Assembly: GCA_965261985.1 (NCBI GenBank)
Contig: OZ253490.1
Span: forward strand, 4,946,631 to 5,010,630
Reading direction: 5' to 3'
Length of the DNA stretch: 64,000 nucleotides
DNA from: Alphaproteobacteria bacterium
GTDB taxonomy: Bacteria; Pseudomonadota; Alphaproteobacteria; Bin95
The notes beneath the pieces were generated by a model that was given only the letters and a program-made list of their open reading frames with translations, was not told the DNA's origin and ran no database searches. Below, in pieces: positions 896 through 62,406 of the stretch (its first letter is position 1; every line of letters starts with the position of its first letter). The translations under genes were made by a program, and so were the position numbers.

Positions 896-901
896 CAGGC
901 C

Positions 902-2068: not shown

Positions 2069-2073
2069 GGCTG

Positions 2074-4411: not shown

Positions 4412-4444
4412 GGAGAACCCTCTCCGGAAGCCCGCCGCCGCGTC

Positions 4445-5442: not shown

Positions 5443-5869
5443 GGCTGCAATCCTCTTGCCATCCGGCGAGCGTGGGCCTAGATTCAAGCGTGGAAACCCC
5501 GGTACCGTCTCTGCCCTAGGCACGCGGCCGGGGTAAATTTTTCCGGGGATCGGTTCCTCGACGGCCGACGGGTGTTTCGGCGCGCCGCCGCGCCTCCCGG
5601 CCCTCTTCCTTCGCTTCCGCAAAGTCGGGCTCCAAATTTCGGATGCGCTCCACCAGCCCGTCTAGATGGTAGATATTGCTGTTCCAGTCTCCGGCAGCGG
5701 TCTTTCGCAACTCCCGGCGATCACTACAATTCCCGACGCCTCCTCCCGGAAACGGTGCCCGGCAGAGCGCTCGGAGGTGAGGCCAATTCGGGCGGGGATG
5801 CGGCCGTCCGGACGGAAGCGTTTCGCGAATGACAGGCCGGACCATGACCGAAGATAGCATTTTGTTCAT

Positions 5870-6305
5870 AAAATTTGAAATAATTCTTCTAAAAGGGCTT
5901 GATCCTGTGAAATCCGTGATAGGATGAGATAGGAAGCGGCATACATGGGGCCGTTTCGTCTCTTGCTGCGCCGGCGCGAAAAACCCCCTGAGAAACGGAC
6001 GGGAGACGTGCGCCCTCCGCTTGCCTCGCGTGCGCGCAATCAGGCGCGCGATATGCGCGCCGGCGCGAGACGCACGCACGCGCGCACATGCGATACGCGC
6101 GAATAAGGGACCCGCCGCAGGCAAACGAGCCGGCGGCATCGATAACGGAACGAAACACGATGGAGGAACGACCGTGTCGAACATACAGAGGCGGGCAAAT
6201 CGGGGTGAATGCCCGGACGCGCCCATGCGGAACGACAGCTTCATGCCCAAACGAGCCATCGGATATGAGCACTGCGCATAGAGGATCATGACATTTCATG
6301 ACACA
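5870..6305 (-). repeat. Dispersed repeat family A, copy a (reverse orientation). TGTCATG array at 6285-6305 abuts the upstream region of the HpcH aldolase gene.
   Basis: Its reverse complement aligns block-wise with copies at 13667, 26615 and 49705: TGTCATGAAATGTCATGA… / …TTCGCGCGTATCGCATGTGCGC… / …GCGCGCCTGATTGCGCGC… / …ATGCCGCTTCC…TCATCCTA…GAATTATTTCA. Confidence 0.75.
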
Positions 6306-33526: not shown

Positions 33527-34891
33527 ATGGCAGACCGGGAGGATATGCTGTTGCCTCTTGACGACTCGAAGAGCGAAGCGAAAGCGACCAAAGACGCCCG
33601 GTCGGATTTTCGCGACCTGGCCTTTTCTTCAAACCGCGGTGAGCCCGTTCATAGGTGGGTCCCGTGGATCGCGGGCTATTCCCGGCAATTCGTGGAACGC
33701 GCCATCGACCTGCACATGAGCGGTCCCGGTGCGGTGCTCGACCCCTTTGCCGGAGTAGGGACGACGCTTGTGGAGGCAGACCGGAGGGGGTACGAATCGG
33801 TCGGCTTCGAGATCAATCCTTATGCGGCGTTCGCCGCCCGCACGAAACTTGCTGCCCATCTCGTCGATACCGGACTCCTGCGCGATACCATCGGCGCATT
33901 TGCACATTTTGCCCACGATGCCGAACGGCATAGCAGGGAGCCTCGGGCAACGCCTCCCGCTGGCTTCAACACAAGAACAGCATTCTATAGTCCCAGTGTT
34001 CAATGGAAAGTATTGACGACACAAGACTTTATTGTGGACATCTCCGACCATTTGATCGCCGACTTCTTTCGTCTTGCTTTTGCATCGACAATGGTTACCT
34101 ATTCGAATTATTCATATGAACCAAGTCTCGGACGGAAGGCAACGGCCGGCCGGCCCGATGTTGACGATTATCCAGTGTTCGCAGAACTGACTGCAAAGCT
34201 GACGGTCATGGCTGCCGATGCAGACTTGTGGAGAGAAGGTCGAGACAATCGGCAACAGCATCGCAGTAAAATTCATGGTGTTTCGTTTTTCGAATTCTAC
34301 AAGAAAATTTCTCAAGAAAGTGTCGATTTGTTAATTACCTCGCCTCCATATTTGAACAACTATCACTATAACCGCAACACAAGGCCTCATCTTTATTGGC
34401 TAGGATTTTGCGACTCTCCTAAGGATTTCAAACAATTGGAACAGAAAAATTTCGGCACTTACTGGCAAACGGCAAGGGACATGAGCCCGATACCCATTAA
34501 CTCCGCAATTGCGAATGACGAAATCAACTCTCTGCTGTCCAATTTGCGTGCCGTGAATCCCGAAAAAGGAATATATGGGGGACAAGGTTGGGCGAACTAT
34601 GCCGCGCTGTATTTCAATGACTGTCTGCGCTTTGCCGAGGGCATGAAATGGTGCCTTCGCCCGGGCGCTACCGCCCTGATCGTTATCGGTAACAGTATCC
34701 TGCAAGGCATACCTGTGGCTACCGACCGTTTCCTCGCCGAAATCGCCGAGAGCGCCGGCATGGAAGCTATCGAGATACATACGCCACGCGATGCCCGTGT
34801 CGGCAACAGCATCGTCAATTCGAGCGTCCGGGTAGGCAAGGCCAATGGCGGCCGCTTGTACGAATCGGTGGTCGAACTGCGCCGGCCATGA
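33527..34891 (+). CDS. DNA methyltransferase, N4-cytosine or N6-adenine type (alpha-class motif order: FxGxG … SPPY)
   Basis: …VLDPFAGVGTTLVEADRRGYESVGFEINPY… (motif I) and …DLLITSPPYLNNYHYNRN… (motif IV). 454 aa. The central part is AT-richer. Confidence 0.85.
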   Translation: MADREDMLLPLDDSKSEAKATKDARSDFRDLAFSSNRGEPVHRWVPWIAGYSRQFVERAIDLHMSGPGAVLDPFAGVGTTLVEADRRGYESVGFEINPYAAFAARTKLAAHLVDTGLLRDTIGAFAHFAHDAERHSREPRATPPAGFNTRTAFYSPSVQWKVLTTQDFIVDISDHLIADFFRLAFASTMVTYSNYSYEPSLGRKATAGRPDVDDYPVFAELTAKLTVMAADADLWREGRDNRQQHRSKIHGVSFFEFYKKISQESVDLLITSPPYLNNYHYNRNTRPHLYWLGFCDSPKDFKQLEQKNFGTYWQTARDMSPIPINSAIANDEINSLLSNLRAVNPEKGIYGGQGWANYAALYFNDCLRFAEGMKWCLRPGATALIVIGNSILQGIPVATDRFLAEIAESAGMEAIEIHTPRDARVGNSIVNSSVRVGKANGGRLYESVVELRRP

Positions 34892-35469
34892 CTGTAAAGC
34901 TGTACGATCCGCTGACCTACGAGAACCTCATGGCCGGACTCACGCTACATTTCGGCGGGCAGGCCAAGGTCCCTTTGGACGGTGCCGAAGAGGCTCCGGG
35001 TCCTGGAATATATGCCCTGTTCTACACGGGACAGTTCGACGCCTATCGCCCGATTTCGGGGACCGATGCCCCGATCTATGTCGGCAAGGCCGTTCCGCCC
35101 GGGTCTCGGCGAGGAGACGATGTCGATATCGAAAAGCCTGTCCTGCGGCAAAGGCTACGGGAGCACGCACGATCTATTGCCGCTGCGGACAATCTCGACC
35201 TCTCGCACTTCACCTGCCGGCACCTCTCGGTAGTTCCTGTCTGGATTACCCTGGCCGAACGCTTTCTCGTCAACCGCCATCGGCCGCTTTGGAATGTTTG
35301 CCTCGACGGCTTCGGAGACCACGATCCCGGTCGGGGTAGAAGCGGGAGCGAACGGAGTTGGTGGGATACACTCCATCCCGGACGGCCCTGGACCGAAAAG
35401 CTTCAGAAGAACAAGTCCGAGGCGGCAGCGTTGACGATGGTGCGCACTTTCCTCGATGGAGGAAGCTGA
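34888..35469 (+). CDS. GIY-YIG restriction endonuclease, Eco29kI/NgoMIII-like
   Basis: …GPGIYALFYTGQFDAYRPISGTDAPIYVGKAVPPGSRRGDD… GIY-…-YVG motif. 193 aa. ATGA-coupled to the MTase. Confidence 0.7.
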   Translation: MTVKLYDPLTYENLMAGLTLHFGGQAKVPLDGAEEAPGPGIYALFYTGQFDAYRPISGTDAPIYVGKAVPPGSRRGDDVDIEKPVLRQRLREHARSIAAADNLDLSHFTCRHLSVVPVWITLAERFLVNRHRPLWNVCLDGFGDHDPGRGRSGSERSWWDTLHPGRPWTEKLQKNKSEAAALTMVRTFLDGGS

Positions 35470-45986: not shown

Positions 45987-46043
45987 CTACCAGGTCTCGC
46001 CGAAGGGGCGCAGTTCGACGCGGAAGGACCAGGCGGAGCGTTC
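45987..46043. repeat. Direct repeat, left copy (relic copy of the SDR gene 3' end), flanking low-GC cassette 1
   Basis: ctaccaggtctcgccgaaggggcgcagttcgacgcggaaggaccaggcggagcgttc against 47381-47437 ctactaggtctcgccgaaggggcggagttcgacgcggatggaccaggcggaacggtc. 52/57 identical. Confidence 0.8.
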
Positions 46044-46181
46044 ATGACGGACGACGCGGTTTGAACTCCGGCAACGCCCACATGCCGCTTGCCCTGCTAA
46101 TCCCAAAGGCGCGCGATGCTGTGACCACCCTAACTGTCCGTCGACTGTCCTATCTGTACAGATCATCCAATCGGTACGACT

Positions 46182-47332
46182 CTACCACTCCGACTCGGTC
46201 GACCCGTCCTCAGAGTCGTCCGGCAGTGCGAAATCATATAGGTCCGCAATTCTGATTTCAGGTTCCTTCAAAGAACACAACAAATCGTTCAGTGCATCAG
46301 CGGCAACATTACATTCTCCAAATTCCAATTCCAATCGACCAGAAAAATGAAATGTATGGGTTACTTCAACTTCCGAATAATGATCATTTAGAAATGAAGT
46401 GGAGTATTCTCTTGGGTCCAATTCAATCGCATCCATTATTGGCAAAGCAAATTGGTACATAAGCTCTGTTTCTGCATGAACTTCTGCCATAAATAATCTA
46501 TCACCAATGTACTCCATACCTTCAATATCAACTCTATGCGGCGCACTTATTCCGCTGAGGTATATCTCACCGCTTTCTCCCGGAAAATTGTCTCCGTATA
46601 TTGTCGAATAATTACCGGATAACAACTCTTCTTCTATGTATTTTGCAATTTCTTCCGATTTTACCTTTGCGATTTGCAAGACATGTTCGCATACAACGGA
46701 GCTGTGCTCCATAATTTTTTGCTCCGCAAAGAAATCTCTAACCTTCGGACTAGTAATGAATTTCAGAAGATCGCTCCAGCAATCGATAGCAATGCTCTCA
46801 CATGCGGCTCGCAGCGCGCCATCCGCTACGACAACCTCTAGATCAGAACCATAGCATTTCTGTAAGCTAATAATCTGTTGGAATATGAACGAATCAGGAA
46901 TGTCTCCACGCGTCTTTGGATTCTTTAGAGGTGGATATCCTTTGAAATAGGCTTCAAGTGCACCGTCAAGTTGTTCCAAAGTGATTGTGTGCCTAATAGC
47001 TTTATGCTCTTCTAACCATTGGGAAAAAGCGGAAACACGTTCAAACACTAGATCATCCAGATCGCACCTTAGTTGTTCCAAAGTGAGCTTTAAGTCCTTT
47101 GATTTTGTGCCTAGAGGCACATGGTCCAAGGCTTTAGAAATATTATTACTTGCATCAGCAATCCTTTTCCTTTGGACTTGCTCTAAATACGACGTATGCT
47201 CCCTCTCAACCACATAAGGTACATGAAGAACCACTTGTCCTGCACCCATAAGTCGCGCCAGAAGTTTAAAGTCCGTAGAATCTAGTCTTGGACATTGTCG
47301 AAATATACTACTATCCAAAACAACGTGCATCA
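46182..47332 (-). CDS. PIN-like-domain protein (DUF4935-like N-terminus), 383 aa, cargo of low-GC cassette 1
   Basis: MMHVVLDSSIFRQCPRLDSTDFKLLARLMGAGQVVLHVPYVVEREHT… resembles PIN-like N-termini; the rest is unknown. Visibly AT-rich. Alternative GTG start at 47378, 3 nt from the SDR stop. Confidence 0.55.
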
Positions 47333-47380
47333 TTGACTTAGCCTGACGTGATAGTGCCCGACAATCCGTGCCAAGCACTC

Positions 47381-47437
47381 CTACTAGGTCTCGCCGAAGG
47401 GGCGGAGTTCGACGCGGATGGACCAGGCGGAACGGTC
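47381..47437. repeat. Direct repeat, right copy (the functional 3' end of the SDR gene 47384-48090)
   Basis: See 45987-46043. Confidence 0.8.
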
Positions 47438-48090
47438 TTGGTGGGCGACGCTGTAGATTTCCTCCGCGATCACCGGGGGCTTCGCGAAGAAGTCGTCCGG
47501 CTTGCCCGGCGCCAGCACCTCGCGGGTGCGCGGCGTGTCGATTGCGGCGTCGATGATGAAATAGGCGACGTGGATGCCCTCAGGCCCGAATTCGCGGGCG
47601 ATGGATTCCGCCAGTATCCGCTGCGCCGCCTTGGTCGAGGCGAAGAAGCCGAAATTCTTGCCGCCCCTTGTGGCCGAGGTGTTGCCGGTCACCAGGATCG
47701 CGCCCTTGCCCGCTTCCAGCATCGCCGGAATGGTCTCGCGGGCGAGATAGAGCAGCGCCGTCGTGTTGACGCGGAAGTTCCTTTCCAGGTCGTCCGGGTC
47801 CAGCTCCAGGATGCCGCCCCGGGTGGAGCGGAGCGCGTTGTGGACCACGACTGCGGGCGCGCCCATCTCCGCCCCGATGCGCGAGACGGTTTCGACGAGG
47901 GCATCCAGATCGGCGACGTCGCACCGATAGGCGCGGGCGTCCTCATACTTGCCGGCGAGCGCGTCGAGATTGTCCGCATTGCGGGCCAGCATGGCGACCC
48001 GGTAGCCGCTCTCGCCGAAGCGTCTGGCGGTCTCGGCGCCGGTGCCGCCTTCGGGCCCGACGCCGGTGACGAGGCAGACCGGCTTGCTCA
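47384..48090 (-). CDS. SDR-family oxidoreductase (paralog of 7704-8408)
   Basis: VSKPVCLVTGVGPEGGTGAETARRFGESGYRVAMLARN…NALRST…. GTG start with a weak SD. Confidence 0.8.
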
Positions 48091-50531: not shown

Positions 50532-50791
50532 GGCGTCGTTTCGCTTCGGCGAGCACCCCTGCTTCCATCTCCTCAAGAGACCTGGCGGGACCGTCGTAGG
50601 CGAGACAACCGAATACCTCCTCCGGCCGGGTTTCGGCGAAGGCCCGCGCGGGTTTCAGCACCACGCCGCCGGGCGTGTCCTCCACGACCAGCCGCGTGCC
50701 GGCCTCCCACCCCAACTTCCTGCGAATCGCGCTCGGCAGAACCACCTGGCCCTTTGTAGAGACTGTAGCGGTGAGCCGTTCCTGCACCGGC
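50518..50791 (-). CDS. AbrB/MazE/SpoVT-type antitoxin
   Basis: MPVQERLTATVSTKGQVVLPSAIRRKLGWEAGTRLVVEDTPGGVVLKPA… with a GGAGG SD. Overlaps the vapC start by 14 nt. Confidence 0.75.
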
Positions 50792-51016
50792 ATCGTCGTC
50801 CCTCCTCCAGCAAGGTAAGACAAAAGTAAGATACACGGATTGGCGGCGAAGACCAAGGGCCGATTCCGGAAACCTCCCGCCCATCCGGCGAAAGAGCGAC
50901 CGCCCGCTGCTGAAAAATGGCGTTTCACCGCGCCTTTCCATTGGCTTTAAATCCACCGGAGCGACACACGTACTCATCGCCGATTTTGTCGCCCGACAGA
51001 TTGGAGGCCGGTAGCA

Positions 51017-51219
51017 TGGCGTCCTTGGAGAATACAGAAACCAGTGTCGCGCAGAATCCGTTGGTCGATGTCATGGAGCGCCTTGCACGGATAGAAGCGC
51101 GACTGGACACGATGGCCACCAAGGAAGACTTGGCGAAGCTCACCAACAAGTTCTGGAGTACCATGTTCGCCATAGCCATCATGGCCGCCGGCCTCGTTAC
51201 CACGGCGACCAAGGTCTAG
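51017..51219 (+). CDS. Small hypothetical protein (67 aa) with a coiled-coil and a C-terminal TM helix
   Basis: MASLENTETSVAQNPLVDVMERLARIEARLDTMATKEDLAKLTNKFWSTMFAIAIMAAGLVTTATKV. GGAGG SD 9 nt upstream. Confidence 0.45.
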
Positions 51220-51284
51220 CTATAGCGAGGCCATGTATGCAACCAACTGGAATTCGGATTTAACTTCAAGAATAGTGACGCAAA

Positions 51285-51781
51285 CTATGTGCACTTAAAC
51301 ACGACAAGTGAAGTTAATTCTAATTCCAGATTTTTCAGATAGGGAGAGTTCACCCTGAATTCTTCATCAATTGAGGATGCAGAATCAATAACGACAAACC
51401 TCTTGCTCTCCGGATTTTCCTTCTTGATCGTAAACCAATGATCTTCAGTGCCTACTATTGCACATTTTGGATCACAAATTCGGAATATTTCTTGAAGCTT
51501 TTCCACATATTCTTCCTTCGTATTGGGCGGGTCTCGATCAAATGGATAATCAAATTCAAATTGGTCAGCATGTCCAATATGCTTCCTGCAATACTCAAGC
51601 ATTTTTTCATATCTTCAAAATAGGTCCCTACCCAAATGCCCGACGGCCACGTCAAGTCCCCCCCGAGAGCACGGCATGCCAGCCTAAATACTCGGAATTC
51701 ATCTTCTACACCACACGCCTTGAAAGCATTAGTGACAGCATACATCCCGCAAAGTCCATCGTATGCTCCTTGATATGCCAT
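51285..51781 (-). pseudogene. Frameshifted C39/papain-like cysteine-peptidase-domain gene, AT-rich
   Basis: The two overlapping ORFs 51455-51781 (MAYQGAYDGLCGMYAVTNAFKACG…, Q…C motif) and 51285-51602 are probably one gene broken between 51455 and 51602. Confidence 0.4.
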
Positions 51782-51838
51782 GCCTTATTCTCTCTCTTGG
51801 TAGATCGAAGAACGGGAAGCCCTTTCCGGAAACCCGCT

Positions 51839-52786
51839 TCACTCCGCCGCCAAATCCTTCTGGTCGTCCGCGTTGTAGTTGGCGTCGTACCACCAGGCGA
51901 GGTGGTCTTCGTAGATCACCGGCGGCCAGCGGGGCGGGTTGTCGGGGCCGGTGCAGGTCGGCGCGCACCGGACTTCGGCGTCGAGGTTCGGGCCGAAGAA
52001 ATAGGGGATGGCGTAGCGGTGGCGGCCGACGGGCGGCTGCGCGCGGTGCGGGGTGGACTGGTAGCGCCCGTTGGTCCAGCGGTGCAGCATGTCGCCCGTA
52101 TTGACGACGAAGCTGTCCTCGACGAAGGGCACATCCTCCCAGTCGCCGCCTTCGGGCCGGATCTGCAGGCCCGGCACGTCCGACTGCGCCAGGAAGGTCA
52201 GGAAATTGGTGTCGGTGTGCGGCGCGATGCCGTAGCGGCCGGGCTCGCGCTCGGTCGGCGGGTAGTGCGAGAGCCGGAAGGAGAACTGGCTGCGGGTGAA
52301 ATGGGGCGAGAACCAGTCCTCCGGCAGGCCGAGCGAGAGCGAGAGCGCCGGCAGCACGCTCAGCGCCAGCCGGTCCACCGTCTCGCAATAGTCGAGCACC
52401 GTCTCGCGGAAGCCAGGCAGGTCCTCCGGCCAGTTGTTGGGGCCGGCGAAGCGGCGCCCGGCCAGCGGGTCTTCCGGCCCGCGCTCGCGCTTGATGAAGA
52501 AGGCCTCGTTCATGTCCGGCTTGGCCGCCGACTCGCTCACCCGCGAGGTGCGCACATTGTAGCGCGCCATCGCCATGTAGCCGTTGTTGTGCTCGTTCAT
52601 CAGCACGGCGTGCTTGGCGGCCTCCGGCCGGGCGTGGAAGCGCTCGGCCTCCGCGAACATGCCCCGGATCTTCTCCTGCGGTACGCCGTGGTTCACGACG
52701 ATGAAGAAGCCGACATGCTCCAGCGTGTTGCTGAGCGCGTCCGCCACGTCCTCCCGGCTCCGGGAAAGGTCGATCAACGGAATCAT
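51839..52786 (-). CDS. 2OG-Fe(II) oxygenase (isopenicillin-N-synthase-like)
   Basis: MIPLIDLSRSREDVADALSNTLEHVGFFIVVNHGVPQE…IAPHTDTNFLTFLAQ…NTGDMLHRWTNGRYQSTPHRA…. Confidence 0.85.
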   Translation of the reverse strand: MIPLIDLSRSREDVADALSNTLEHVGFFIVVNHGVPQEKIRGMFAEAERFHARPEAAKHAVLMNEHNNGYMAMARYNVRTSRVSESAAKPDMNEAFFIKRERGPEDPLAGRRFAGPNNWPEDLPGFRETVLDYCETVDRLALSVLPALSLSLGLPEDWFSPHFTRSQFSFRLSHYPPTEREPGRYGIAPHTDTNFLTFLAQSDVPGLQIRPEGGDWEDVPFVEDSFVVNTGDMLHRWTNGRYQSTPHRAQPPVGRHRYAIPYFFGPNLDAEVRCAPTCTGPDNPPRWPPVIYEDHLAWWYDANYNADDQKDLAAE

Positions 52787-54954: not shown

Positions 54955-55490
54955 AGGCCGCGCCTCCCCCTCTTGTCACCCCGGACGGCGTGCCTCCACC
55001 TCTTGTCACCCCGGACGGCGCGAAGCGGCGATCCGGGGCCCAGCCCGCCGGCACCGCGCCGGGTCGCAGCGGCGGTGCTGGACCCCGGCTCGGAGGCCGG
55101 GGCGACAACGAGGGTGGCCGGTGTTCGAAGCCGGCGGCGTTTCCTCCCCCGTCAACCCCGACAGCCCGCCTCCCCCATCGTCACCCCGGACGGCGTGCCT
55201 CCACCTCTTGTCACCCCGGACGGCGCGAAGCGGCGATCCGGGGCCCAGCCCGCCGGCACCGCGCCGGGTCGCAGCGGCGGTGCTGGACCCCGGCTCGGAG
55301 GCCGGGGCGACAACGAGGGTGGCCGGTGTTCGAAGCCGGTGGCGTTTCCTCCCCCGTCAACCCCGACAGCCCGCCTCCCCCATCGTCACCCCGGACGGCG
55401 CGGAGCGGCGGTCCGGGGCCCAGCCCGCCGGGACCCTGCCGGGTTGCAGCGGCGGTGCTGTTAGCGTTTCATTTGGCCCGACCCGGGCGA
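54955..55490 (+). repeat. Repeat family B tandem expansion (~206-bp unit about 2.5 times, each unit containing nested TGTCACCCCGGACGGCG elements)
   Basis: Unit cctccacctcttgtcaccccggacggcgcgaagcggcgatccggggcccagcccgccggcaccgcgccgggtcgcagcggcggtgctggacc… recurs at ~54992 and ~55198 with 1-2 mismatches. Terminal copy …gcagcggcggtgctgttagcgtttcatttggcccg. Confidence 0.8.
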
Positions 55491-55512
55491 CCATGTGAAC
55501 GGAGAACGACCG

Positions 55513-56448
55513 ATGACGCGGTTCTGGACGGTCTGCCTTGCGCTCATCCTCGCACCGCTGGCCTCGGCGGATGGCAAGGAGTTGAAGCCGAAACCCGGCG
55601 ATATCGGCGGGGTCTTCTATACGGAGGTGTCGGGCGAGCCGGAGCCCGCGCCCGGCGTAGTCCCGGCGGACCGGCTCATGCAGGCGCGGGCCCGGACGAA
55701 TGTGCGCAGCGGGCCGGGGACCGACCATGCCAAAATCGGGCTGCTGGAAGCGGGCCGGGAGGTGCGGGTGACGGGCGAGGCCGGCGAGTGGCTGCGGATC
55801 GAGGTCCCGGACGGCGGCGCGGCCTTCGTCCACGGCTCGCTGCTTGCCGCGCCCGTCCCGCAGGGCCGGAACCGGGCGGCGGCGCTCTCGCCGAAATGCG
55901 CAGGGATGAGCAAGGGCGGCGCGTGCTGGCAGGAACTCGCCGACCGTCCAGGCTGCCACTTCTGGTACGACTATTACAATCCCAAGGTAAGCTGGACCTG
56001 GTCGGGAGCGTGCCGGGACGGCGCCGCAAACGGACGGGGAACGCTGGCGGCGACGTGGAGCGGCGGGTCCGCCGAACTCGGTGGAACGCTGGATGGCGGC
56101 AGGATGCAGGGCCGGTGGGTCATCCGCTACGCTGACGGGAGGGTTGACGAAGGCACTTATCTGAATGGCAAGAAGCACGGCCGGTGGACCGACCGCTACG
56201 CCAATGGGCGGGTCGATGAAGGCCCCTATGCGAATGGCAGGAAGCACGGCCGATGGGTGGATCGCTATGCCAGCGGCAACAGCTTCGAATACGACTACCG
56301 CGACGGCTCGGTGGACGGACAGCCGGGGGTCTATGTCATCGAGGACGGTGAACGCTATCCGGGGCGCTGGTTCGGCAACTGCTTCCTGGACGGCGAGGGC
56401 CGCTTGTGGGTTTGGCGCGGCAACAAGGACAATTGCCCCTCCGAATAG
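55513..56448 (+). CDS. Secreted SH3b-domain plus MORN-repeat protein
   Basis: Signal peptide MTRFWTVCLALILAPLASADG. SH3b-like …TNVRSGPGTDHAKIGLLEAGREVRVTGEAGEWLRIE…. MORN repeats …YLNGKKHGRWTDRYANGRVDEGPYANGRKHGRWVDRYASG…. SD GGAGAA. Confidence 0.7.
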   Translation: MTRFWTVCLALILAPLASADGKELKPKPGDIGGVFYTEVSGEPEPAPGVVPADRLMQARARTNVRSGPGTDHAKIGLLEAGREVRVTGEAGEWLRIEVPDGGAAFVHGSLLAAPVPQGRNRAAALSPKCAGMSKGGACWQELADRPGCHFWYDYYNPKVSWTWSGACRDGAANGRGTLAATWSGGSAELGGTLDGGRMQGRWVIRYADGRVDEGTYLNGKKHGRWTDRYANGRVDEGPYANGRKHGRWVDRYASGNSFEYDYRDGSVDGQPGVYVIEDGERYPGRWFGNCFLDGEGRLWVWRGNKDNCPSE

Positions 56449-56461
56449 CGGAATGCGGCCC

Positions 56462-56580
56462 ATCCCCGCCCCCCCTTTGCCACCCCGGACGGAGCGGAGC
56501 GTTGAGCAGGGGCCCGGAATGCCGGAACCCAGCCGGGTTGCAGTGGCGGTGCCGCTACGGTTTCACTTGGCCCGGCGTGC
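56462..56580 (+). repeat. Repeat family B copy
   Basis: cccctttgccaccccggacggagcggagcgttgagcaggggcccggaatgccggaacccagccgggttgcagtggcggtgccgctacggtttcacttggcccg. Confidence 0.6.
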
Positions 56581-56639
56581 CTTGATCGTCCGCTTTGGAA
56601 ATGCCATGCCTTGCGGTGGCGCAAGCAGCGGGTAGCGGG

Positions 56640-57950
56640 ATGGCGGAATATCTGAAGCGGGGCCGGACGGAGGCCCAGCGCGTCGAGGCGGATGCGAAGG
56701 TGCGCGCCGCCGTCGAGGCGATCCTGGACGACATCCGGGCGCGGGGCGACGAGGCCGTGCGGGCGCTCTCGAAGAAGTTCGACGACTGGTCGCCGGAGAG
56801 CTTCCGGCTGTCGGAGCAGGAGATCGAGCGGGCGCTCTCGCAGGTGGCGAAGCGCGATCTCGACGACATCCGCTTCGCCCAGGCCCAGGTGCGCGGTTTC
56901 GCCGAGCACCAGCGCGCCGCGCTCAAGGACATCGAGGTCGAGACGCTGCCGGGTGTGGTGCTTGGGCATAAGAACATCCCGGTGAACTCGGTCGGCTGCT
57001 ATGCGCCCGGCGGCAAATATCCCATCGTCGCCTCGGTGCATATGAGCGTCGTCACCGCCAAGGCCGCCGGCGTGCCGCGCATCGTGGCCGCCGCCCCGCC
57101 CGCGCAAGGCGGCGGCCCGCATGCGGCCATGGTCGCCGCCATGCATATGGGCGGGGCCGACGAAATCCTGGTGCTGGGCGGCGTGCAGGCGGTGGGCGCG
57201 ATGGCGCTCGGCACGGAGTCGGTGGCGCCGGTCGATATGCTGGTCGGTCCCGGCAACGCCTTCGTTGCGGAGGCCAAGCGCCAGCTCTTCGGCCGTGTCG
57301 GCATCGACCTGCTGGCGGGCCCGACCGAGACCCTGCTGGTCGTGGACGAGACGGTGGACGCCGAGCTCTGCGCGACCGACCTGCTGGGCCAGGCCGAGCA
57401 CGGTCCCGACAGCCCGGCCATACTGGTGACGAACTCGCGCACGCTGGCCGAAGCCACCATGGCCGAGGTCGAGCGCCTGCTGACCATCCTGCCGACGGCC
57501 GCCAATGCCGGCGCCGCCTGGCGGGACTATGGGGAGGCGATCGTCTGCGCCGACCATGACGAGATGCTGGCGGAAGCCGAGCGCATCGCATCCGAGCATG
57601 TGCAGGTGATGACCGACCGGGACGAGTGGTACCTGGAGAACATGACCAACTACGGCGCGCTGTTCCTCGGGCCGCGCACCAATGTCTCCTATGGCGACAA
57701 GGTGATCGGCACCAACCACACCCTGCCCACCCGCCGCGCGGCGCGCTACACGGGCGGCCTCTGGGTCGGCAAGTTCATCAAGACGCACACCTACCAGCGC
57801 ATATTGACCGACGAGGCCTCGGCCGCGCTCGGCGAGGTCTGCTCCCGGCTCTGCATGCTGGAGGGCTTCGTCGGCCATGCAGAGCAGGCCAATCTGCGCG
57901 TCCGCCGCCTCGGCGGCCGTAACATCCCCTACGGCACGGCAGCGGAGTGA
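56640..57950 (+). CDS. Histidinol-dehydrogenase-family protein (hisD-like, in a catabolic gene context)
   Basis: …[32 protein letters not shown]…[35 protein letters not shown]…[15 protein letters not shown]…. Start at ATG 56640 (TTG at 56595 possible). Confidence 0.8.
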
Positions 57951-59020
57951 CGGCGCTGCTGCCCGGCGCGATCGACTGCGACCTGCATCCGGCGCCGCCG
58001 TCCGTCTCCGCGCTCCTGCCATACTTGGAGCCGCATTGGGCCGATGCGGCGGGGCATCGCGGGCTGCACGAGCTGGAGACCATTGCCTGGCCGCCCAATG
58101 CGCCGCTCTCCTGCCGGCCCGACTGGCGGGACGGCGCCGCGCGGCCCGGCAGCGACCCCGCCCGCCTGATAGGCGACGCCGTGGACGGCTTCGGCACCCG
58201 CTACGCCATCCTCAACTGCCTCTACGGCGCGCCGATGCTCTATTCCGAGGACATGGCGGCCGGCTTCTGCCGCGCGCTGAACGACTGGCTGAAGGCGGAA
58301 TGGCTCGACCGCGACCCGCGCCTGCGCGCCTCCATCCTCATGCCGCCGCACGCCCCGGACCTTGCGGCGGAAGAGATCGAGCGCGCCGGGGCGGACCGGC
58401 GGTTCGTGCAGGTGCTGCTGCCGGTCATGGGCGAGACGCCGCCCGGCCGGCGGACCAACTGGCCGATCTACGCCGCGGCCGAGCGGGCGGGCCTGCCGGT
58501 CGCCTTCCATGCCGGCTCCGCCTACCGCCACCCGCCGACACCGGTCGGCTGGCCCTCCTATCTCGCCGAGGACTACGCCGCGCAGGCAACCGCCTTCCAG
58601 TCGGCGCTCACCAGCCTCATCGCCGAAGGCGTGTTCCGGAAGTTCCCGGAGCTTACCGTCGTGTTCGCGGAATCGGGCGTCGCCTGGCTGCCGGCGCATC
58701 TCTGGCGGCTGACGAAATACTGGCGCGGGCTGCGCATGGAAATCCCCTGGGTGGACCGCAGCCCGGAGGAGATCGTGCGCGAGCGCATCCGCTTCACCAT
58801 CCAGCCCTTCGACGCGCCGCAGGAGCCGGAGGCGGTGGCCCGCCTGCTGGACCATCTGGGCTCGGACGACATGCTGCTGTTCGCCACCGACTACCCGCAC
58901 TGGCAGTTCGACGGCATGGGCGCGCTGCCCGAAGGCTTGCCAGAGGCCCTCGTCCGGCGTATCGCAGTGGACAATCCGCGCGCCACCTATCCGCGCCTCA
59001 GGGAGCATGTGTCTTGCTAA
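57947..59020 (+). CDS. Amidohydrolase_2-family (TIM-barrel metal-dependent hydrolase, ACMSD-like) protein A. The last residues after the repeat (…REHVSC) are supplied by cassette 2.
   Basis: …[11 protein letters not shown]…[12 protein letters not shown]…. GTG start overlapping the hisD-like stop (GTGA). Paralog of 60033-61151. Confidence 0.8.
58936..59005. repeat. Direct repeat, left copy (3' end of amidohydrolase A), flanking low-GC cassette 2
   Basis: cttgccagaggccctcgtccggcgtatcgcagtggacaatccgcgcgccacctatccgcgcctcagggag against 59955-60024 cttgccagaagacctcgtccggcgtatcgtggtggataatccgcgcgccacctatccgcgcctcagggag. All mismatches are in the first 38 bp. Confidence 0.8.
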
Positions 59021-59130
59021 CTTGGTGATTGGTGTTGGTATGAATTACATTGCATTGTAATCATCGTGCCCTGCGTCGACATCTATCTGTCTTGCGCTCT
59101 TAAGTTGCCCTCCAAGTAGGAGAAAATCCC

Positions 59131-59868
59131 GTGAGGCTCAGCGATAAGGACTTAGACAATATGCCCTCTGATCGCGAGGGTGCTTTTATGTATCTCGAAC
59201 AATTAAGCAAAGAGGAATACGAACTCCGCGCACGAAACGATAAGGATCACAATACTAACGAGGATGGTAGATATTTTGGTTCTTTTGAACCAGAATGGAC
59301 GTATGTCTCAGACATTCTGGCGTGTCTTGATGAATTGATTCTCGAAATTGATGTCCCAGATATTACCGACATTTTCAAAAACGATTGGGACAAGGATCAA
59401 GACATTATGAAAGAGTTTAATTTCTTTAGGCAGCGAGTGAACTACATTGTTTCCAGATTTAGGATTAGAAGGGCGAGGATGTACAATGGGAGTGCTGGCA
59501 CTCCTGTATCAATAAAGTCAAATTACAAAGAGGAAATTGGAAATTTGCTGAACACTATCAGAAAGATAGTTAATCAACAGGTAGTTGATGACAAGAAAAA
59601 GGAGGCAATTTTCAAGAAGATCGTCTCCTTACAATTGGAGGTGGACCGAGATAGAACCACCATTGATGTTCTGTTTGGAAACATGCTGGATTTTACGAAA
59701 ACTTTAGGCGAGTGCACGGATAACCTAGAACCCCTGTTGGAAAAAGTAGAACGATTGAAAAAACTAATTTGGGACAATGTTGGCAAAGTTGATGCTCTTC
59801 CAGAGAAGGAGAGGCCCAAGCTCATTGAGTCACCATCTAATGAACTAGACGATGACATTCCGTTTTGA
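59131..59868 (+). CDS. Hypothetical protein, 245 aa, cargo of low-GC cassette 2
   Basis: GTG start with SD AGGAGA. MRLSDKDLDNMPSDREGAFMYLEQLSKEEYELRARN…. Strongly AT-rich, coiled-coil-rich, no recognised family. Confidence 0.55.
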   Translation: MRLSDKDLDNMPSDREGAFMYLEQLSKEEYELRARNDKDHNTNEDGRYFGSFEPEWTYVSDILACLDELILEIDVPDITDIFKNDWDKDQDIMKEFNFFRQRVNYIVSRFRIRRARMYNGSAGTPVSIKSNYKEEIGNLLNTIRKIVNQQVVDDKKKEAIFKKIVSLQLEVDRDRTTIDVLFGNMLDFTKTLGECTDNLEPLLEKVERLKKLIWDNVGKVDALPEKERPKLIESPSNELDDDIPF

Positions 59869-59954
59869 TGGAACCTACTGTGTGTACAGTTTAAGGTGAT
59901 CTGTACAGATAGGGTAATCGCCTGACAGTGGCGGCTTCAGCTGGCGACAAAGGA

Positions 59955-60024
59955 CTTGCCAGAAGACCTCGTCCGGCGTATCGTGGTGGATAATCCGCGC
60001 GCCACCTATCCGCGCCTCAGGGAG
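59955..60024. repeat. Direct repeat, right copy (native gene end with the stop overlapping the amidohydrolase B start)
   Basis: See 58936-59005. Followed by GGAGGGGGAGCC-GTG, the start of the next gene. Confidence 0.8.
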
Positions 60025-60032
60025 GGGGAGCC

Positions 60033-61151
60033 GTGACGACCGAAGTCCTGGAACGCCCAGCCGGGGAGAGTGCCGCAGAGTCCGACACCCGGATCGCCGA
60101 CTGCGACATCCATCCGAGCCCGAAATCGCTCGAGCGCGAGATCTACCCCTTCCTCGAGAAGCGCTGGCAGCGCCATCTGGAGCGCTACGGCGCCAGGCCC
60201 CGCCAGCCCTTCCTGAACGGCCCGGCCTATCCGAAGGGCCAGCCCGACGCCGCGCGCCGCGACGCCTATCCGCCCGCCGGCGGCCGGCCCGGCAGCGACC
60301 TTGCCTTCATGCGCGCCCAGCATCTCGACCCGAACAATGTCGGCTTCGGCGTGCTGAACCCGCTCAAGTCCGGCCAGGGCCTGCAGAACCTCGACTTTGC
60401 GGACGCCTATTGCCGCGCCATCAACGACTGGCAGATCGCCTTCTGGACCCGCGAGGAGCCCCGGCTCAAGGCCTCCATCGTCGTCCCCTATGAGGACACC
60501 GCGGCGTCGGTGCGCGAGATCGATCGCTGCGCCGGCGAGGAAGACTATGTCCAGGTCTTCATGCTGAACCGCACGGCCGAGCCGATGGGCCAGCGCCGCT
60601 ACTGGCCGATCTACGACGCCGCGGCCGCGGCCGGCCTGCCGCTCGCGGTCCATGCCTTCGGCTTCGGCGGCGCGCCGATAACCGGCGGCGGCTGGCCCTC
60701 CTACTATATCGAGGACATGACCGGCCACGCCCAGTCCAGCCAGGCGGCGCTCACCAGCATGGTGTTCGAGGGCGTGTTCGACCGGCTGCCCAGCCTCAGG
60801 ATGGTGCTGATCGAGAGCGGCTTCGCCTGGCTGCCGGCGCTCTGCTGGCGGCTCGACCGGGTGTGGGCGCGGATGCGGGACGAGCTCCACCGCTGCAAGC
60901 GCCGGCCGAGCGAGACCATCCACGAGCAGGTGTTCCTGACCACGCAGCCGATGGAGGAGCCGCGCCGCCCGCGCCAGCTTCTCGACTGCATCGAGTGGAT
61001 CGGCTGGGACAGGCTGCTGTTCGCCACCGACTACCCGCATTGGGACTTCGACCGGCCGGACCGGGTGCTGCCGCCGTCGGTGGATGCCGGGAAGCGCCGG
61101 GCCTTCTTCCGCGACAACGCGCTCAAGGTGTACGGCCGGCAGATGCCGTGA
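60033..61151 (+). CDS. Amidohydrolase_2-family protein B
   Basis: MTTEVLERPAGESAAESDTRIADCDIHPSPKSLEREIYPFLEKRWQRHL…[18 protein letters not shown]…; 372 aa. Confidence 0.82.
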   Translation: MTTEVLERPAGESAAESDTRIADCDIHPSPKSLEREIYPFLEKRWQRHLERYGARPRQPFLNGPAYPKGQPDAARRDAYPPAGGRPGSDLAFMRAQHLDPNNVGFGVLNPLKSGQGLQNLDFADAYCRAINDWQIAFWTREEPRLKASIVVPYEDTAASVREIDRCAGEEDYVQVFMLNRTAEPMGQRRYWPIYDAAAAAGLPLAVHAFGFGGAPITGGGWPSYYIEDMTGHAQSSQAALTSMVFEGVFDRLPSLRMVLIESGFAWLPALCWRLDRVWARMRDELHRCKRRPSETIHEQVFLTTQPMEEPRRPRQLLDCIEWIGWDRLLFATDYPHWDFDRPDRVLPPSVDAGKRRAFFRDNALKVYGRQMP

Positions 61152-61546
61152 CCCGCCATGCGGTGGCCCCGGTCTCCGAGTTTCCGCCGGGCACGCGCCG
61201 CTGCGTCGTTCTGGAGGGGCGGCGGATCGCGCTGTTCAATGTCGGCGGGCGCTATTTCGGCCTGCTGGACCGCTGCCCGCACCAGGGCGGCCCGCTGTCG
61301 GAAGGGGTGCTGACCGGCCTGGTCGAGGCCGAAGCGCCCGGCGATTACAGCTTTTCGCGACCGGGAGAAATCCTGCGCTGCCCCTGGCACGGCTGGGAGT
61401 TCGACCTCGCCACGGGCGAAAGCCGCTTCGACCCCCGCCGCCACAAGACCCGCGCCTACCGCGTCACCGCCGCTTCAGGCGAGGACCTCAAGGCCGAAAC
61501 CGTCCCGGTCTGCGTCGAGGAGGACTATGTGGTCGTCGAGACCTGA
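61148..61546 (+). CDS. Rieske [2Fe-2S]-domain protein
   Basis: …LLDRCPHQGGPLSEG…ILRCPWHGWEFDLATGES… (CxH…CxxH). GTG start overlapping the upstream stop. Confidence 0.75.
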   Translation: MTRHAVAPVSEFPPGTRRCVVLEGRRIALFNVGGRYFGLLDRCPHQGGPLSEGVLTGLVEAEAPGDYSFSRPGEILRCPWHGWEFDLATGESRFDPRRHKTRAYRVTAASGEDLKAETVPVCVEEDYVVVET

Positions 61547-61619
61547 GGCGCGGCGGGCCGGTGACAGGAGAGCGGCGCAGGCGTAGCATGGTCGGGAAGC
61601 TGGCAATGGAGCGAACGGG

Positions 61620-62195
61620 ATGAGCGCGGGCGCGACGCTGCGCAGCCGGAGGACAGGCCGGGCCACCTATCGGGATGTGCTCGACGCGCCGCCGCATATG
61701 GTCGCCGAAATCGTCGAAGGCGCGCTGCACCTGCAGCCGAGGCCGGCCATGCCGCATGCACTGGCGGGATCGTCGCTTGGTGATGAACTAGTCAGCCCTT
61801 TCCAGAAGGGCCGGGGCGGGCCCGGCGGCTGGTGGATCGTTTACGAGCCGGAGCTCCATTTCGGCGAGGATGTGCTGGTGCCCGACCTTGCCGGCTGGCG
61901 CCGGGAGCGGATGCCGGACTACCCGGATACGCCCTATTGCACCCTCGCGCCGGATTGGGTCTGCGAGATACTCTCTCCCTCGACGCGGAAGTTCGACCTC
62001 GAAGAGAAGCGCCCGGTCTATGCGCGGGAAGGCGTCGGCCATCTTTGGTTAGTCGATCCGGCCGCCCGCACGCTGGAAGCGTTTGCGCTGCGGGACGGCG
62101 AGTGGTCGCCAGCAGGTTCGGCGAAGAACGACGACTCTGTGTCCTTCCCGCCCTTCGAAGCCATCGCCTTCCCCCTGGACGCGCTCTGGCCCTGA
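61620..62195 (+). CDS. Uma2-family (DUF820) putative endonuclease
   Basis: …WWIVYEPELHFGEDVLVPDLAGWRRERMPDYPDTPYCTLAPDWVCEILSPSTRKFDLEEKRPVYAREGVGHLWLVDP…. Confidence 0.75.
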   Translation: MSAGATLRSRRTGRATYRDVLDAPPHMVAEIVEGALHLQPRPAMPHALAGSSLGDELVSPFQKGRGGPGGWWIVYEPELHFGEDVLVPDLAGWRRERMPDYPDTPYCTLAPDWVCEILSPSTRKFDLEEKRPVYAREGVGHLWLVDPAARTLEAFALRDGEWSPAGSAKNDDSVSFPPFEAIAFPLDALWP

Positions 62196-62207
62196 AGCGC
62201 GCCGGCC

Positions 62208-62406
62208 TACATCCAGTTTTCGACGCTCAGTCCCTCGAACGCCCGGAAGTCGGCGATGTTCGATGTCACGAGAATCGACCCGTTGATGTGAGCGATCGCG
62301 GCGATCCGGTCGTCGACGAAGGGCGGCGGTCAGCCGCGCACGCTCCCCGACGTTCGACCGCGGCCGCAACGGTTCCGAGACGGTATCGGTGTCGAGGAGA
62401 TACTTC
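62208..62406 (-). pseudogene. Internally deleted VapC (PIN) toxin remnant downstream of an intact antitoxin
   Basis: N-terminal VKYLLDTDTVSEPLRPRSNVGERARLTAA… and, in another frame, the C-terminal …AAIAHINGSILVTSNIADFRAFEGLSVENWM*. The central ~60% of a normal PIN domain is missing. Confidence 0.5.

What the first reader, a model, noticed from the sequence alone, without database searches (positions are those of the whole stretch)
58936..60024. Low-GC single-gene cassette 2 between tandem amidohydrolase paralogs, flanked by a 70-bp imperfect duplication of the upstream gene end, with an altered C-terminus
Same architecture as cassette 1. A ~0.95 kb AT-rich block (59006-59954) carries one 245-aa gene of unknown function, co-oriented and immediately downstream of amidohydrolase A. 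It is flanked by two copies of A's last 70 bp. All 6 mismatches lie in the first 38 bp and the last 32 bp are identical, which fits a crossover within the identical segment. The right copy preserves the native stop/start overlap with amidohydrolase B (GGAGGGGGAGCC-GTGA). The left copy now terminates A with a cassette-supplied tail (…REHVSC* instead of …REGEP*). The block also contains a perfect inverted repeat, attacattgcattgtaat (59063-59083), upstream of the cargo gene.
Basis: seen in the sequence. Interest (0 to 1): 0.8.

Follow-up and report, generated by a model that had tools for sequence, protein, structure and literature searches.

The report
Foreign gene wedged between two genes
A 944-base piece of foreign, AT-rich DNA carrying one gene and the broken end of a jumping element sits between two overlapping enzyme genes, flanked by a 74-base duplication of the first gene's end; the insertion is real and recent but has no machinery of its own, and how the duplication arose is unresolved.

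Summary
The core observation holds. Window 59006-59949 (42% GC against about 70%) is absent from three related genomes in which amidohydrolases A and B overlap directly. It is present, with SNPs, in two other assemblies. The flanking repeat is 74/75 nt when gapped (58932-59005 / 59950-60024). Its 70-nt core has 5 mismatches, not 6. Gene A ends ...REHVSC* instead of ...REGEP*.

Just 3' of the cargo lies the 28-nt terminal inverted repeat of an IS481-family insertion sequence, cut off 20 nt further in. The same scar sits in the same place in cassette 1, whose repeat is also 74 nt. Only these two low-GC blocks, out of about 40 examined, have flanking repeats. The two inserts share no other terminal motif, and neither carries a recombinase.

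The cargo belongs to a broad, uncurated family of about 240-aa helical proteins that end in the SSB tail motif DD(D/E)IPF.

Strain comparison shows that the cassette now moves among roughly 97%-identical strains by ordinary homologous recombination. The "identical 32 bp" is a host-allele coincidence, not a mapped crossover.

My best reading is a single illegitimate capture of plasmid-like DNA with duplication of the target in place. An att-type or Campbell-type integration remnant remains a serious rival. The repeated 74-nt length is unexplained.

The parts
57947..59020 (+). Amidohydrolase A (PF04909, 357 aa). Its last 4 codons and stop (59006-59020, HVSC*) come from the insert.
   Evidence: Pfam match E = 2e-44. 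Orthologs are 356 aa and end REGEP, GEGKP or GEETP.
58932..59005 (.). Left copy of the 74-nt direct repeat (ungapped core 58936-59005). It is part of the functional A gene.
59006..59949 (+). Inserted DNA, 944 nt, 41.9% GC. Absent from L008, L009 and L010; present in L015 and L027.
   Evidence: blastn breakpoints; GC; occupied loci.
59044..59061 (.). No evidence of function.
   Evidence: No counterpart in cassette 1.
59131..59868 (+). Cargo gene, 245 aa, GTG start with TAGGAG 8 nt upstream. All-alpha protein with a disordered tail ending in DDDIPF, the SSB C-terminal motif.
   Evidence: No Pfam, NCBIfam, PADLOC or PHROG match and no PDB fold match.
59902..59929 (+). Terminal inverted repeat (the end beyond the transposase stop codon, IRR) of an IS481-family insertion sequence: TGTACAGATAGGGTAATCGCCTGACAGT. 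Its tip faces the cargo and its inward direction faces the right repeat copy. It is a solo scar. The 33 nt at 59897-59929 are shared with cassette 1.
   Evidence: Identical to the IRR of complete 1.24-kb IS copies that have 7-bp target duplications in L002, and nearly so in L001. Transposase = NF033577 IS481.
59930..59949 (+). 20-nt spacer between the IR and the right repeat copy. Its first 7-9 nt still resemble IS interior; the rest is of unknown origin.
59950..60024 (.). Right copy of the repeat (75 nt, with a 1-nt insertion). It is non-coding and keeps the native sequence upstream of B. Its differences from the left copy cluster next to the insert.
60033..61151 (+). Amidohydrolase B (PF04909, 372 aa). 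Native RBS and start context retained.
45987..47454 (-). Cassette 1, the sister case. A 74-nt repeat (45987-46060 / 47381-47454) of the end of an SDR gene flanks a 1320-nt insert. The insert holds a PIN_12-domain gene (46182-47333/47378), an IS481-type IR (46133-46160) and a 72-nt spacer.

Best explanation
Cassette 2 is not a self-mobile cassette. It is a 944-bp fragment of foreign, plasmid-like low-GC DNA, made up of one promoterless gene for an SSB-tail-bearing helical protein plus the broken right end of an IS481-family insertion sequence. It was captured once, in a recent ancestor of three sampled strains, at the junction of the overlapping amidohydrolase genes A and B.

The capture duplicated 74 bp of the target in place. 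Candidate routes are a long target-site duplication from a staggered break that was filled in, or a replication template switch that left and then re-entered the chromosome 74 nt upstream. As a result A lost only its last 3 codons and gained HVSC*, while B kept its native 74 upstream bases with its ribosome-binding site.

The truncated IS end marks where the donor fragment was broken. The cargo has no promoter-like site of its own and is probably transcribed by read-through from A.

Since the capture the insertion has been passed between, and probably lost from, strains about 97% identical by ordinary homologous recombination in the flanks. The right repeat copy, which is never selected and is least often replaced close to the insert, decays from the insert side.

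Shown: the insertion, its limits, the duplication, the IS scar, presence/absence polymorphism, and recombination tracts. Inferred: the founding mechanism, read-through expression, and the role of the IS end.
For: Clean empty sites exist in L008 (96-98% nt identity), L009 and L010, and one 74-nt stretch there aligns to both copies. The same insert at the same site occurs in L015 (about 0.4% diverged) and L027 (about 2.5% diverged), so it is real and polymorphic.

The least-changed state (L015) has only 3 differences between copies. Two of them, plus a 1-nt insertion, lie in the 17 nt of the right copy nearest the insert; the third is a synonymous G>A at 58966 in the left copy. The allele linked to the cassette equals the window-type host allele (C..C at 58984/58992) and not a foreign one, as expected if the duplicate was copied from the local chromosome.

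The inserts of cassettes 1 and 2 share no terminal motifs and no terminal inverted repeats. Neither encodes a recombinase. L027 is mosaic, with a window-like tract from about 58888 to 59967 and L008-like sequence from 59984 onward, so the right crossover lies inside the right copy.

Complete copies of the IS behave as an ordinary IS, with 7-bp duplications GATTGAC, GACTGAT, CCTCATA and CCTGGGC. The solo IRs in C1 and C2, and probably in metagenome contig L006, are therefore truncations.

Relatives of the cargo sit in plasmid maintenance regions: ParA-RHH-cargo-MobA in L013, and cargo-resolvase-TA-ParA on the Methylosinus plasmid pMSC49d. There is no promoter-like site in the leader and no terminator between A and the cargo.
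Against: No known bacterial process makes a 74-bp target duplication. Cassettes 1 and 2 both duplicate 74 nt, which points to a ruler that this explanation does not supply.

Both captured fragments would have to end within 48-100 nt of the same kind of IS end. I can only rationalise that (for example, transposase cutting at the other IS end and degradation up to a protected IRR); I cannot show it.

In cassette 1 the parts of the two copies next to the insert differ much more (10 of 74). The left copy lost the conserved F and terminal W. This fits an element-borne copy of a homologous gene end as well as it fits old age.

The donor has not been sampled. The nearest relative of the cargo outside the occupied strains themselves (99-100% in L015 and L027) is 51-53% identical. 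Gene conversion between the copies could have erased an originally foreign repeat in cassette 2.
Confidence: 0.42

Rival explanations
1. Remnant of an integrative element. A circular DNA carrying its own copy of the last ~74 bp of the target gene recombined with the chromosomal gene end, either site-specifically with the integrase now deleted or supplied in trans, or by RecA (Campbell type). That gives attL/attR-like repeats, a replaced gene end and a displaced native end, as e14 does at icd/icdC. Later deletions associated with the IS481 element removed everything except one cargo gene.
For: A gene with a replaced 3' end plus a displaced native 3' fragment is the signature of e14-type integration (PMC13626634). 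In cassette 1 the halves next to the insert diverge reciprocally. The left copy's 3' part (SIRVEL..GET*) and the right copy's 5' part (VVRHER) are both altered, while the host-side halves match the outgroup L009 and the family consensus AHQDRSAWSF..PFGETW. The new tail REHVSC resembles natural C-termini in the family, such as REHVA in P0023 and RESVS.. in P0027. An IS scar fits decay of a larger island.
Against: There is no integrase, and the window was not screened for one acting in trans. Two different target genes would need two integrases, yet both remnants show the same repeat length and the same IS scar next to the right repeat. The two inserts share no arm-type or core-type sequences. 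In cassette 2 the cassette-linked repeat allele is the local host allele. The reciprocal pattern in cassette 1 is also expected from linkage alone, because the parts next to the insert cannot be refreshed by recombination with empty alleles. IS-mediated deletions normally leave the IS whole.
Confidence: 0.3
2. The IS481-family transposase itself moved the cargo, by one-ended or alternative-end transposition of DNA next to its right end (as ISEcp1 does). The solo IR would then be the working end of a non-autonomous unit.
For: The IR is the only sequence the two cassettes share, and it co-occurs with the flanking repeats: 2 of 2, against none of about 40 other low-GC blocks. In L002 a second TGTACAGATA lies exactly at the far edge of the AT-rich gene next to a complete IS. 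L006 is a third case of an AT-rich ORF followed by what appears to be a solo IR.
Against: The geometry is wrong. The IR points away from the cargo, so the cargo lies outside the end the transposase would move. The insert junctions are not at an IR tip. There is no second IR and no 7-bp duplication at the insert borders. Complete copies transpose normally with 7-bp duplications. In L002 the intact IS has its own perfect duplication, so it arrived after the AT-rich gene.
Confidence: 0.07
3. A retroelement-type repeat pair, such as the template and variable repeats of a diversity-generating retroelement, or a cDNA insertion of a transcript.
For: The repeat lies at the 3' end of a gene and its 3' part is identical between copies. 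The two substitutions and the inserted base at the 5' end of the right copy are all adenines, whereas the third ancestral difference (G in the right copy against A in the left, repeat position 31) is not. The insert lacks a promoter.
Against: There is no reverse transcriptase in or near the insert. In cassette 1 only 1 of 10 differences is at an adenine of the downstream copy. In cassette 2 one difference is G in the downstream copy against A in the gene. There is no Rfam match, no shared RNA structure and no terminator at the insert's end.
Confidence: 0.03
4. Assembly or chimera artefact.
For: Low-GC block in a long-read metagenome-type assembly.
Against: The same structure, with independent SNPs, occurs in three assemblies from different samples (window, L015, L027). 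The cargo ORF is intact in all three, identical in L015 and 243/245 in L027.
Confidence: 0.01

Closest known systems
e14 / phage 21 integration into icd (icd plus the icdC pseudogene)
   Same: An element inserted in the last part of a protein gene. The gene continues into the element with an altered C-terminus. A displaced native 3' fragment is left as an imperfect direct repeat on the far side. Recombination between the copies restores a chimeric gene (PMC13626634).
   Different: e14 is a 15-kb prophage with its own integrase and a defined core site. Here the insert is 0.94 kb with no recombinase, and in cassette 2 the repeat allele next to the insert is the host's own.
Cis-mobilizable elements (CIMEs) and other recombinase-less, att-flanked island remnants (pseudo-SCC elements, satellite modules of tycheposons)
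   Same: Cargo flanked by direct repeats at a gene's 3' end, with no integration genes, and presence/absence polymorphism among strains (my own knowledge; reviews PMC5704250 and PMC7563491 were listed but not read).
   Different: Those repeats are short att cores recognised by a known integrase family that also acts at the same site in relatives. No such integrase or recurrent site use is seen here, and the repeat is 74 nt.
IS481-family insertion sequence (nearest annotated relative: ISAs19-like, 72% nt identity)
   Same: A 28-nt terminal inverted repeat identical to that of complete 1.24-kb copies.
   Different: Only one end plus 20 nt of interior remains. There is no transposase, no second end and no 7-bp duplication, and the cargo lies outside the end.
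IS1634/IS1549-type insertion sequences with long, variable target duplications
   Same: They show that duplications of tens to hundreds of bp can accompany an insertion in bacteria (my own knowledge, not checked here).
   Different: Those are autonomous IS4-group elements with transposase and terminal repeats at the junctions. Neither is present here.
SSB (single-stranded DNA-binding protein) C-terminal tip
   Same: The cargo ends in DDDIPF, the hexapeptide through which SSB recruits its partner proteins (PMC5872125, PMC7145534). The tip is conserved in about two thirds of 147 family representatives.
   Different: There is no OB fold. The body is an all-alpha domain with no detectable relative in the PDB or Pfam.

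Membership tests
Integron gene cassette | attC site (R''-L''...L'-R' imperfect palindrome with a GTTRRRY core) 3' of a promoterless ORF, in an array next to intI/attI | tested here: not met
   The 3' flank is an IS481 inverted repeat, not an attC. There is no GTTRRRY core at the C2 junctions and no significant or shared fold. Insertion at attI or attC does not duplicate 74 nt.
IS481-family IS or its non-autonomous derivative (MITE) | Two terminal inverted repeats facing each other | tested here: not met
   Only one IR per cassette. No second copy within 3 mismatches anywhere in the window, and none by local alignment to full IS copies.
IS481-family IS or its non-autonomous derivative (MITE) | DDE (rve) transposase gene, or for a MITE none but both ends intact | tested here: not met
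   The cargo has no rve domain. The IS interior stops 20 nt (C2) or 72 nt (C1) after the IR.
IS481-family IS or its non-autonomous derivative (MITE) | Short (here 7-bp) target duplication directly abutting the IR tips | tested here: not met
   Complete copies have 7-bp duplications. In C2 the 7 nt outside the tip (GGTGATC) do not recur at the other border.
Integrase-borne genomic island / CIME-type remnant | Direct repeats made of the 3' end of the target gene flanking the element | tested here: met
   74/75-nt repeat of the end of A; empty sites hold one copy.
Integrase-borne genomic island / CIME-type remnant | Tyrosine or serine recombinase in the element, or a known one acting at this att site | tested here: not met
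   The insert's only ORF has no family match. A trans-acting integrase elsewhere in the genome could not be searched for.
Integrase-borne genomic island / CIME-type remnant | Excision to a circle and restoration of attB | not testable with these tools
   Needs raw reads or PCR. The empty allele in L008 is compatible with either never-occupied or excised.
Diversity-generating retroelement (VR/TR pair) | Reverse transcriptase nearby, with mismatches only at adenines of the template repeat | tested here: not met
   No RT. Non-adenine mismatches are present in both cassettes.
SSB family | N-terminal OB-fold ssDNA-binding domain | tested here: not met
   The AlphaFold model is all-alpha. No Pfam SSB match.
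SSB family | Acidic C-terminal tip D-D-D-I-P-F | tested here: met
   Near-invariant in alignment A1. 97 of 147 representatives end in acidic-(I/L)PF.

The most novel reading that the evidence does not exclude
Cassettes 1 and 2 could be products of an undescribed insertion process with a fixed ~74-bp ruler on the target side. One possibility is paired nicks seven helical turns apart. Another is a fork-restart or template-switch step that spans one SSB-wrapped gap of about 65-75 nt. Such a process would wedge promoterless foreign gene fragments into the last codons of host genes without needing defined element ends. The broken IS481 end would supply the recombinogenic DNA end, and the SSB-tail cargo might take part in the process. 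The cassette would then belong to a new class of 'end-less' gene capture rather than being an accident.
Probability: 0.15. Interest if true: 0.85.

Novelty: new variant of a known kind. Interest (0 to 1): 0.55.

Why it matters
The case shows, with the empty site and two further occupied strains in hand, how a single foreign gene can be slotted into a translationally coupled gene pair in a 70%-GC alphaproteobacterium at almost no cost. The upstream gene loses three codons and the downstream gene keeps its own upstream sequence.

It also shows that such an islet then behaves as an ordinary allele spread by homologous recombination. That cautions against reading mismatch patterns in flanking repeats as crossover maps.

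Two leads could matter more widely. First, the same 74-nt duplication and the same truncated IS481 end recur in two independent insertions, and no known mechanism predicts this. Second, there is a large, uncurated protein family (about 1400 clusters at 50% identity) whose members carry the SSB C-terminal docking peptide on a non-SSB helical body. Members often sit as AT-rich single-gene islets or in plasmid maintenance regions. They are candidates for hijacking the SSB interaction hub.

Tried and rejected
- Integron attC, dif/Xer sites, IS91-type CTTG/GTTC targets and group II intron ends were checked by eye against the junction sequences. Nothing was consistent between the two cassettes.
- Rfam at a permissive threshold over 45.8-60.2 kb gave no match.
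- RNA folds of the four cargo-to-IR regions showed no significant or shared structure.
- The promoter/terminator scan gave no support for an own promoter, or for transcript ends at the insert border.
- Local alignment of the insert termini (C1 against C2, and each left end against its right end) gave no signal.
- The spacer or its filler is not templated from elsewhere in the window.
- The paralogous SDR in the window is not the source of cassette 1's divergent right copy.
- Homologs of the cargo in other genomes (L011/12, L013, L014, L026, L028, L038) are AT-rich single-gene islets but have no flanking repeats and no IR.
- P0124's 17 contigs are one context repeated, not many insertion sites.
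- Look-ups of the cassette 1 cargo with two alternative start codons found nothing on record, so no second strain or empty site for cassette 1.
- The insertion in L010 between hisD and A is a GC-normal repeat protein without flanking repeats. L009's 398-aa neighbour of the SDR is unrelated to cargo 1.
- Viral contig scans found one cargo relative and no IR. A plasmid DNA search with the insert found no match.
- Fold searches (PDB, BFVD) and a PDB profile search for the cargo gave nothing significant. The AFDB library was unavailable.
- A literature search for 74-bp duplications in bacteria found nothing relevant.
Full report
**What is in the sequence.** Window 58600-60400 shows a 70%-GC gene (amidohydrolase A, PF04909) running into a block of about 42% GC and then into a second PF04909 gene, B. 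A direct repeat flanks the block. It is 58936-59005 / 59955-60024 ungapped (70 nt, 5 mismatches at repeat positions 10, 12, 30, 31, 37). With one 1-nt indel allowed it is 58932-59005 / 59950-60024 (74/75 nt, z = 52 against shuffles).

**It is an insertion.** A search with protein A returned orthologs of 98, 92 and 84% identity. All are 356 aa and end ...REGEP...GEGKP and ...GEETP. Their contigs (L008, L009, L010) have A and B overlapping with nothing between them. By blastn, L008 positions 571-4409 match window 55167-59005 and L008 positions 4336-5964 match window 59950-61578. One 74-nt stretch of the empty site therefore aligns to both repeat copies, and the insert is 59006-59949, 944 nt. The left copy continues into insert-supplied codons (HVSC*). 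The right copy continues into the native GGGGAGCCGTGA with B's ribosome-binding site and start.

**It is real and polymorphic.** The same insert at the same place is in L015 (a different sample, about 0.4% diverged over 5.5 kb) and in L027 (a 2.6-Mb contig, 97.5% identity, cargo 243/245 identical). L008 belongs to the same recombining population and lacks the insert.

Cassettes 1 and 2 share only one sequence, a 33-nt stretch TGATCTGTACAGATAGG...GACAGT that begins 28 nt (C2) or 16 nt (C1) after the cargo stop codon. A scan of 185,579 species genomes found the motif in two alphaproteobacterial MAGs, and a metagenome scan found it in five contigs.

In L001 and L002 the motif is the terminal inverted repeat, on the side beyond the transposase stop codon, of a 1.24-kb insertion sequence. 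That element has a second, inverted repeat (TGTAGTGAGATGGTAATCACCTGACAGT), a 349-372-aa rve transposase that passes NCBI's IS481 equivalog cut-off, and perfect 7-bp target duplications (GATTGAC, GACTGAT). A sister IS (82% identical transposase) shows ordinary 7-bp duplications in varied sites. The nearest annotated relative is ISAs19-like.

In the window the IR is a scar. Its tip faces the cargo, and only about 20 nt (C2) or 72 nt (C1) follow before the right repeat copy. The first few of these still resemble IS interior. There is no second IR in the window. A 1.2-kb metagenome contig (L006) seems to show a third AT-rich ORF followed by the same IR. After it come roughly 80 nt that by eye resemble IS interior, and then a convergent gene that by eye looks hipA-like. 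Neither reading was checked with a tool.

**Association of repeat and scar.** Seven low-GC blocks in the window and about 35 in 230 kb of related loci were tested for flanking repeats. Only cassette 1, cassette 2 and the orthologs of cassette 2 have them, and these are the blocks with the truncated IS end. Loci where the complete IS abuts AT-rich DNA have no long repeat. The two repeats have the same length, 74 nt (ungapped cores of 69 and 70 nt). Apart from the IR, the two inserts share no terminal motif and have no terminal inverted repeats.

**What the mismatches mean.** The three occupied strains differ in their repeats.

- L015's right copy has only GAAGAC (against GAGGCC) and one inserted A, all within 17 nt of the insert, plus one synonymous difference at position 31.
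- The window adds two private C>T changes.
- In L027 the right copy's distal part and the start of B carry the L008-type allele (G..T, GGAGAGCCATGA), whereas its left copy carries the window-type C..C.

A three-way SNP map shows that L027 is window-like from about 58888 through the insert to 59967, and L008-like from 59984 onward. The cassette therefore entered that background by ordinary homologous recombination, with the right crossover inside the right copy. The "identical last 32 bp" in the window simply reflect that this host's native allele equals the allele linked to the cassette. They do not map the founding crossover.

The gradient of differences, highest in the right copy next to the insert, is what linkage predicts. 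That segment is non-coding and is the part least often replaced by recombination with empty alleles.

Cassette 1 shows the same gradient more strongly. Seven of its 10 differences lie in the first 23 nt of the right copy, and the left copy has lost the conserved F and terminal W. Its only outgroup is 13% diverged, so the changes cannot be polarised securely.

**Founding mechanism.** Three facts point to a duplication made in place during an illegitimate capture:

1. The near-perfect ancestral repeat is built from the local host allele.
2. The insert has no defined ends.
3. The insert encodes no recombinase.

This is my best explanation (0.42). The truncated IS end would be the broken end of the donor fragment. 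Plasmid contexts of cargo relatives (L013, and Methylosinus pMSC49d) make a plasmid donor plausible.

The main rival (0.30) is an att-type or Campbell integration of a circular element carrying its own copy of the gene end, as e14 does at icd, later reduced by deletion. It explains the replaced tail and cassette 1's reciprocal divergence. It needs two integrases, and it does not explain the shared scar or the equal repeat lengths.

Direct action of the IS481 transposase is geometrically disfavoured. The cargo lies outside the IR, and the insert junctions are not at IR tips.

A diversity-generating retroelement, integron cassettes, structured RNAs and an assembly artefact were tested and rejected.

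None of these models predicts a 74-nt ruler. I record that as unexplained.

**The cargo.** The 245-aa protein has no Pfam, NCBIfam, PADLOC or PHROG match. Word-indexed search found 18 relatives. A profile search of 1.84 billion cluster representatives found 1439 at E <= 1e-3 and 158 at E <= 1e-30, nearly all 220-260 aa. Ten sampled members have no Pfam family above cut-off.

The alignment shows a conserved core (IRKIVNQE..KKDAIF..LQ.EVDRDRTT.DALF) and a near-invariant C-terminus DD(D/E)IPF. Of 147 representatives, 97 end in acidic-(I/L)PF. That hexapeptide is the SSB C-terminal tip, which docks SSB onto its many partner proteins (PMC5872125, PMC7145534).

AlphaFold2 gives an all-alpha body (mean pLDDT 82) followed by a disordered linker (residues 224-241) and then the tip. 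No significant fold match was found in the PDB or BFVD.

Relatives examined elsewhere are tight single-gene blocks of 31-54% GC, mostly 31-44%, in genomes of 53-72% GC. They often lie directly downstream of a co-oriented gene or in plasmid partition or resolution regions. The likeliest function, by inference only, is an adaptor or decoy that engages SSB-binding proteins. Whether it serves a plasmid, a defence role or the host is unknown.

**Expression.** No sigma-70-like site lies in the 125-nt leader and no terminator lies between A and the cargo, so read-through from A is the simplest expectation. The only promoter-like match in the region is inside the right repeat copy (59956-59984). Its second hexamer, TATCGT, was created by one of this strain's private C>T changes. 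That may be compensation for B's expression. It is untested.

**Verdict.** The insertion, the duplication and the altered C-terminus are real. "Cassette" overstates what is there. The case is best filed as a recombinase-less insertion-duplication islet with an IS481 scar, which is a new variant of known island remnants. Two points are of real interest: the repeated 74-nt length tied to a truncated IS end, and a large uncharacterised family bearing the SSB tip.

Noticed in passing
window 59131-59868; alignment A1; P0261-P0407: The cargo belongs to a large uncurated family (1439 representatives at E <= 1e-3) of about 240-aa all-alpha proteins whose C-terminus is the SSB docking peptide DD(D/E)IPF. 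There is no OB fold, no Pfam family and no PDB fold match.
   Followed up: partly
window 45987-47454: Cassette 1 has a 74-nt repeat of the end of an SDR gene, a 1320-nt insert with a PIN_12-domain gene, and the same IS481 IR (7 of 28 positions diverged) with a 72-nt spacer. The functional SDR copy lost the family-conserved F and terminal W (..SIRVELRPFGET*).
   Followed up: partly
window 59979-59991: Two C>T changes private to this strain lie in the right repeat copy. One creates TATCGT, the second hexamer of the only sigma-70-like match in the region, just upstream of amidohydrolase B. It may be a compensatory promoter.
   Followed up: no
window 50650-51840: Another low-GC block (about 45% GC, small minus-strand ORFs) is absent from L009, where 17 nt take its place. 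It has no long flanking repeat. An 11-nt TTCCGGAAACC occurs at 50863 and at 51823, near the two edges.
   Followed up: partly
window 61550-62345: An Uma2-family (PF05685) gene of normal GC lies after the Rieske gene. It is present in the window, L015 and L027 but is replaced by about 360 nt of other sequence in L009.
   Followed up: no
window 33527-35469: A low-GC block holds a 454-aa ORF that looks like a DNA methyltransferase and a 193-aa partner, possibly a restriction-modification islet. No flanking repeat. The domains were not tested.
   Followed up: no
window 54967-55376 and 56098-56235: Tandem 205-nt units (98% identical) and 69-nt units lie inside the SH3-domain gene upstream of hisD. 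This region is also the least conserved against L009.
   Followed up: no
L002 1778-2295: A 113-aa AT-rich secreted-protein gene sits between a complete IS481 copy (perfect 7-bp duplication GACTGAT) and a second TATCTGTACA (the IR tip) exactly at the far edge of the low-GC DNA. It may be the relic of an older IS end.
   Followed up: partly
L006 (Ga0114950_10358660) 740-880: A third, independent case of an AT-rich ORF followed by the identical 30-nt IR. By eye, roughly 80 nt of IS-like interior follow, then a convergent hipA-like gene (neither tool-checked). The contig is too short to see whether a flanking repeat exists.
   Followed up: partly
All IRR flanks (window 59895-59901, 46161-46167; L001, L002, L003, L005, L006): The bases just outside the IR tip are GA(T/C/A) in all seven copies (GATC in four). 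They extend the tip into an imperfect palindrome, ATCTGTACAGAT. This suggests a target preference of this IS subgroup for sequences resembling its own end.
   Followed up: no
L010 9262-10004: In the 84%-identity relative, a 200-aa protein made of 33-nt tandem repeats, plus a 43-aa ORF, lie between hisD and amidohydrolase A. Those genes overlap in the other strains. GC is normal and there is no flanking repeat.
   Followed up: partly
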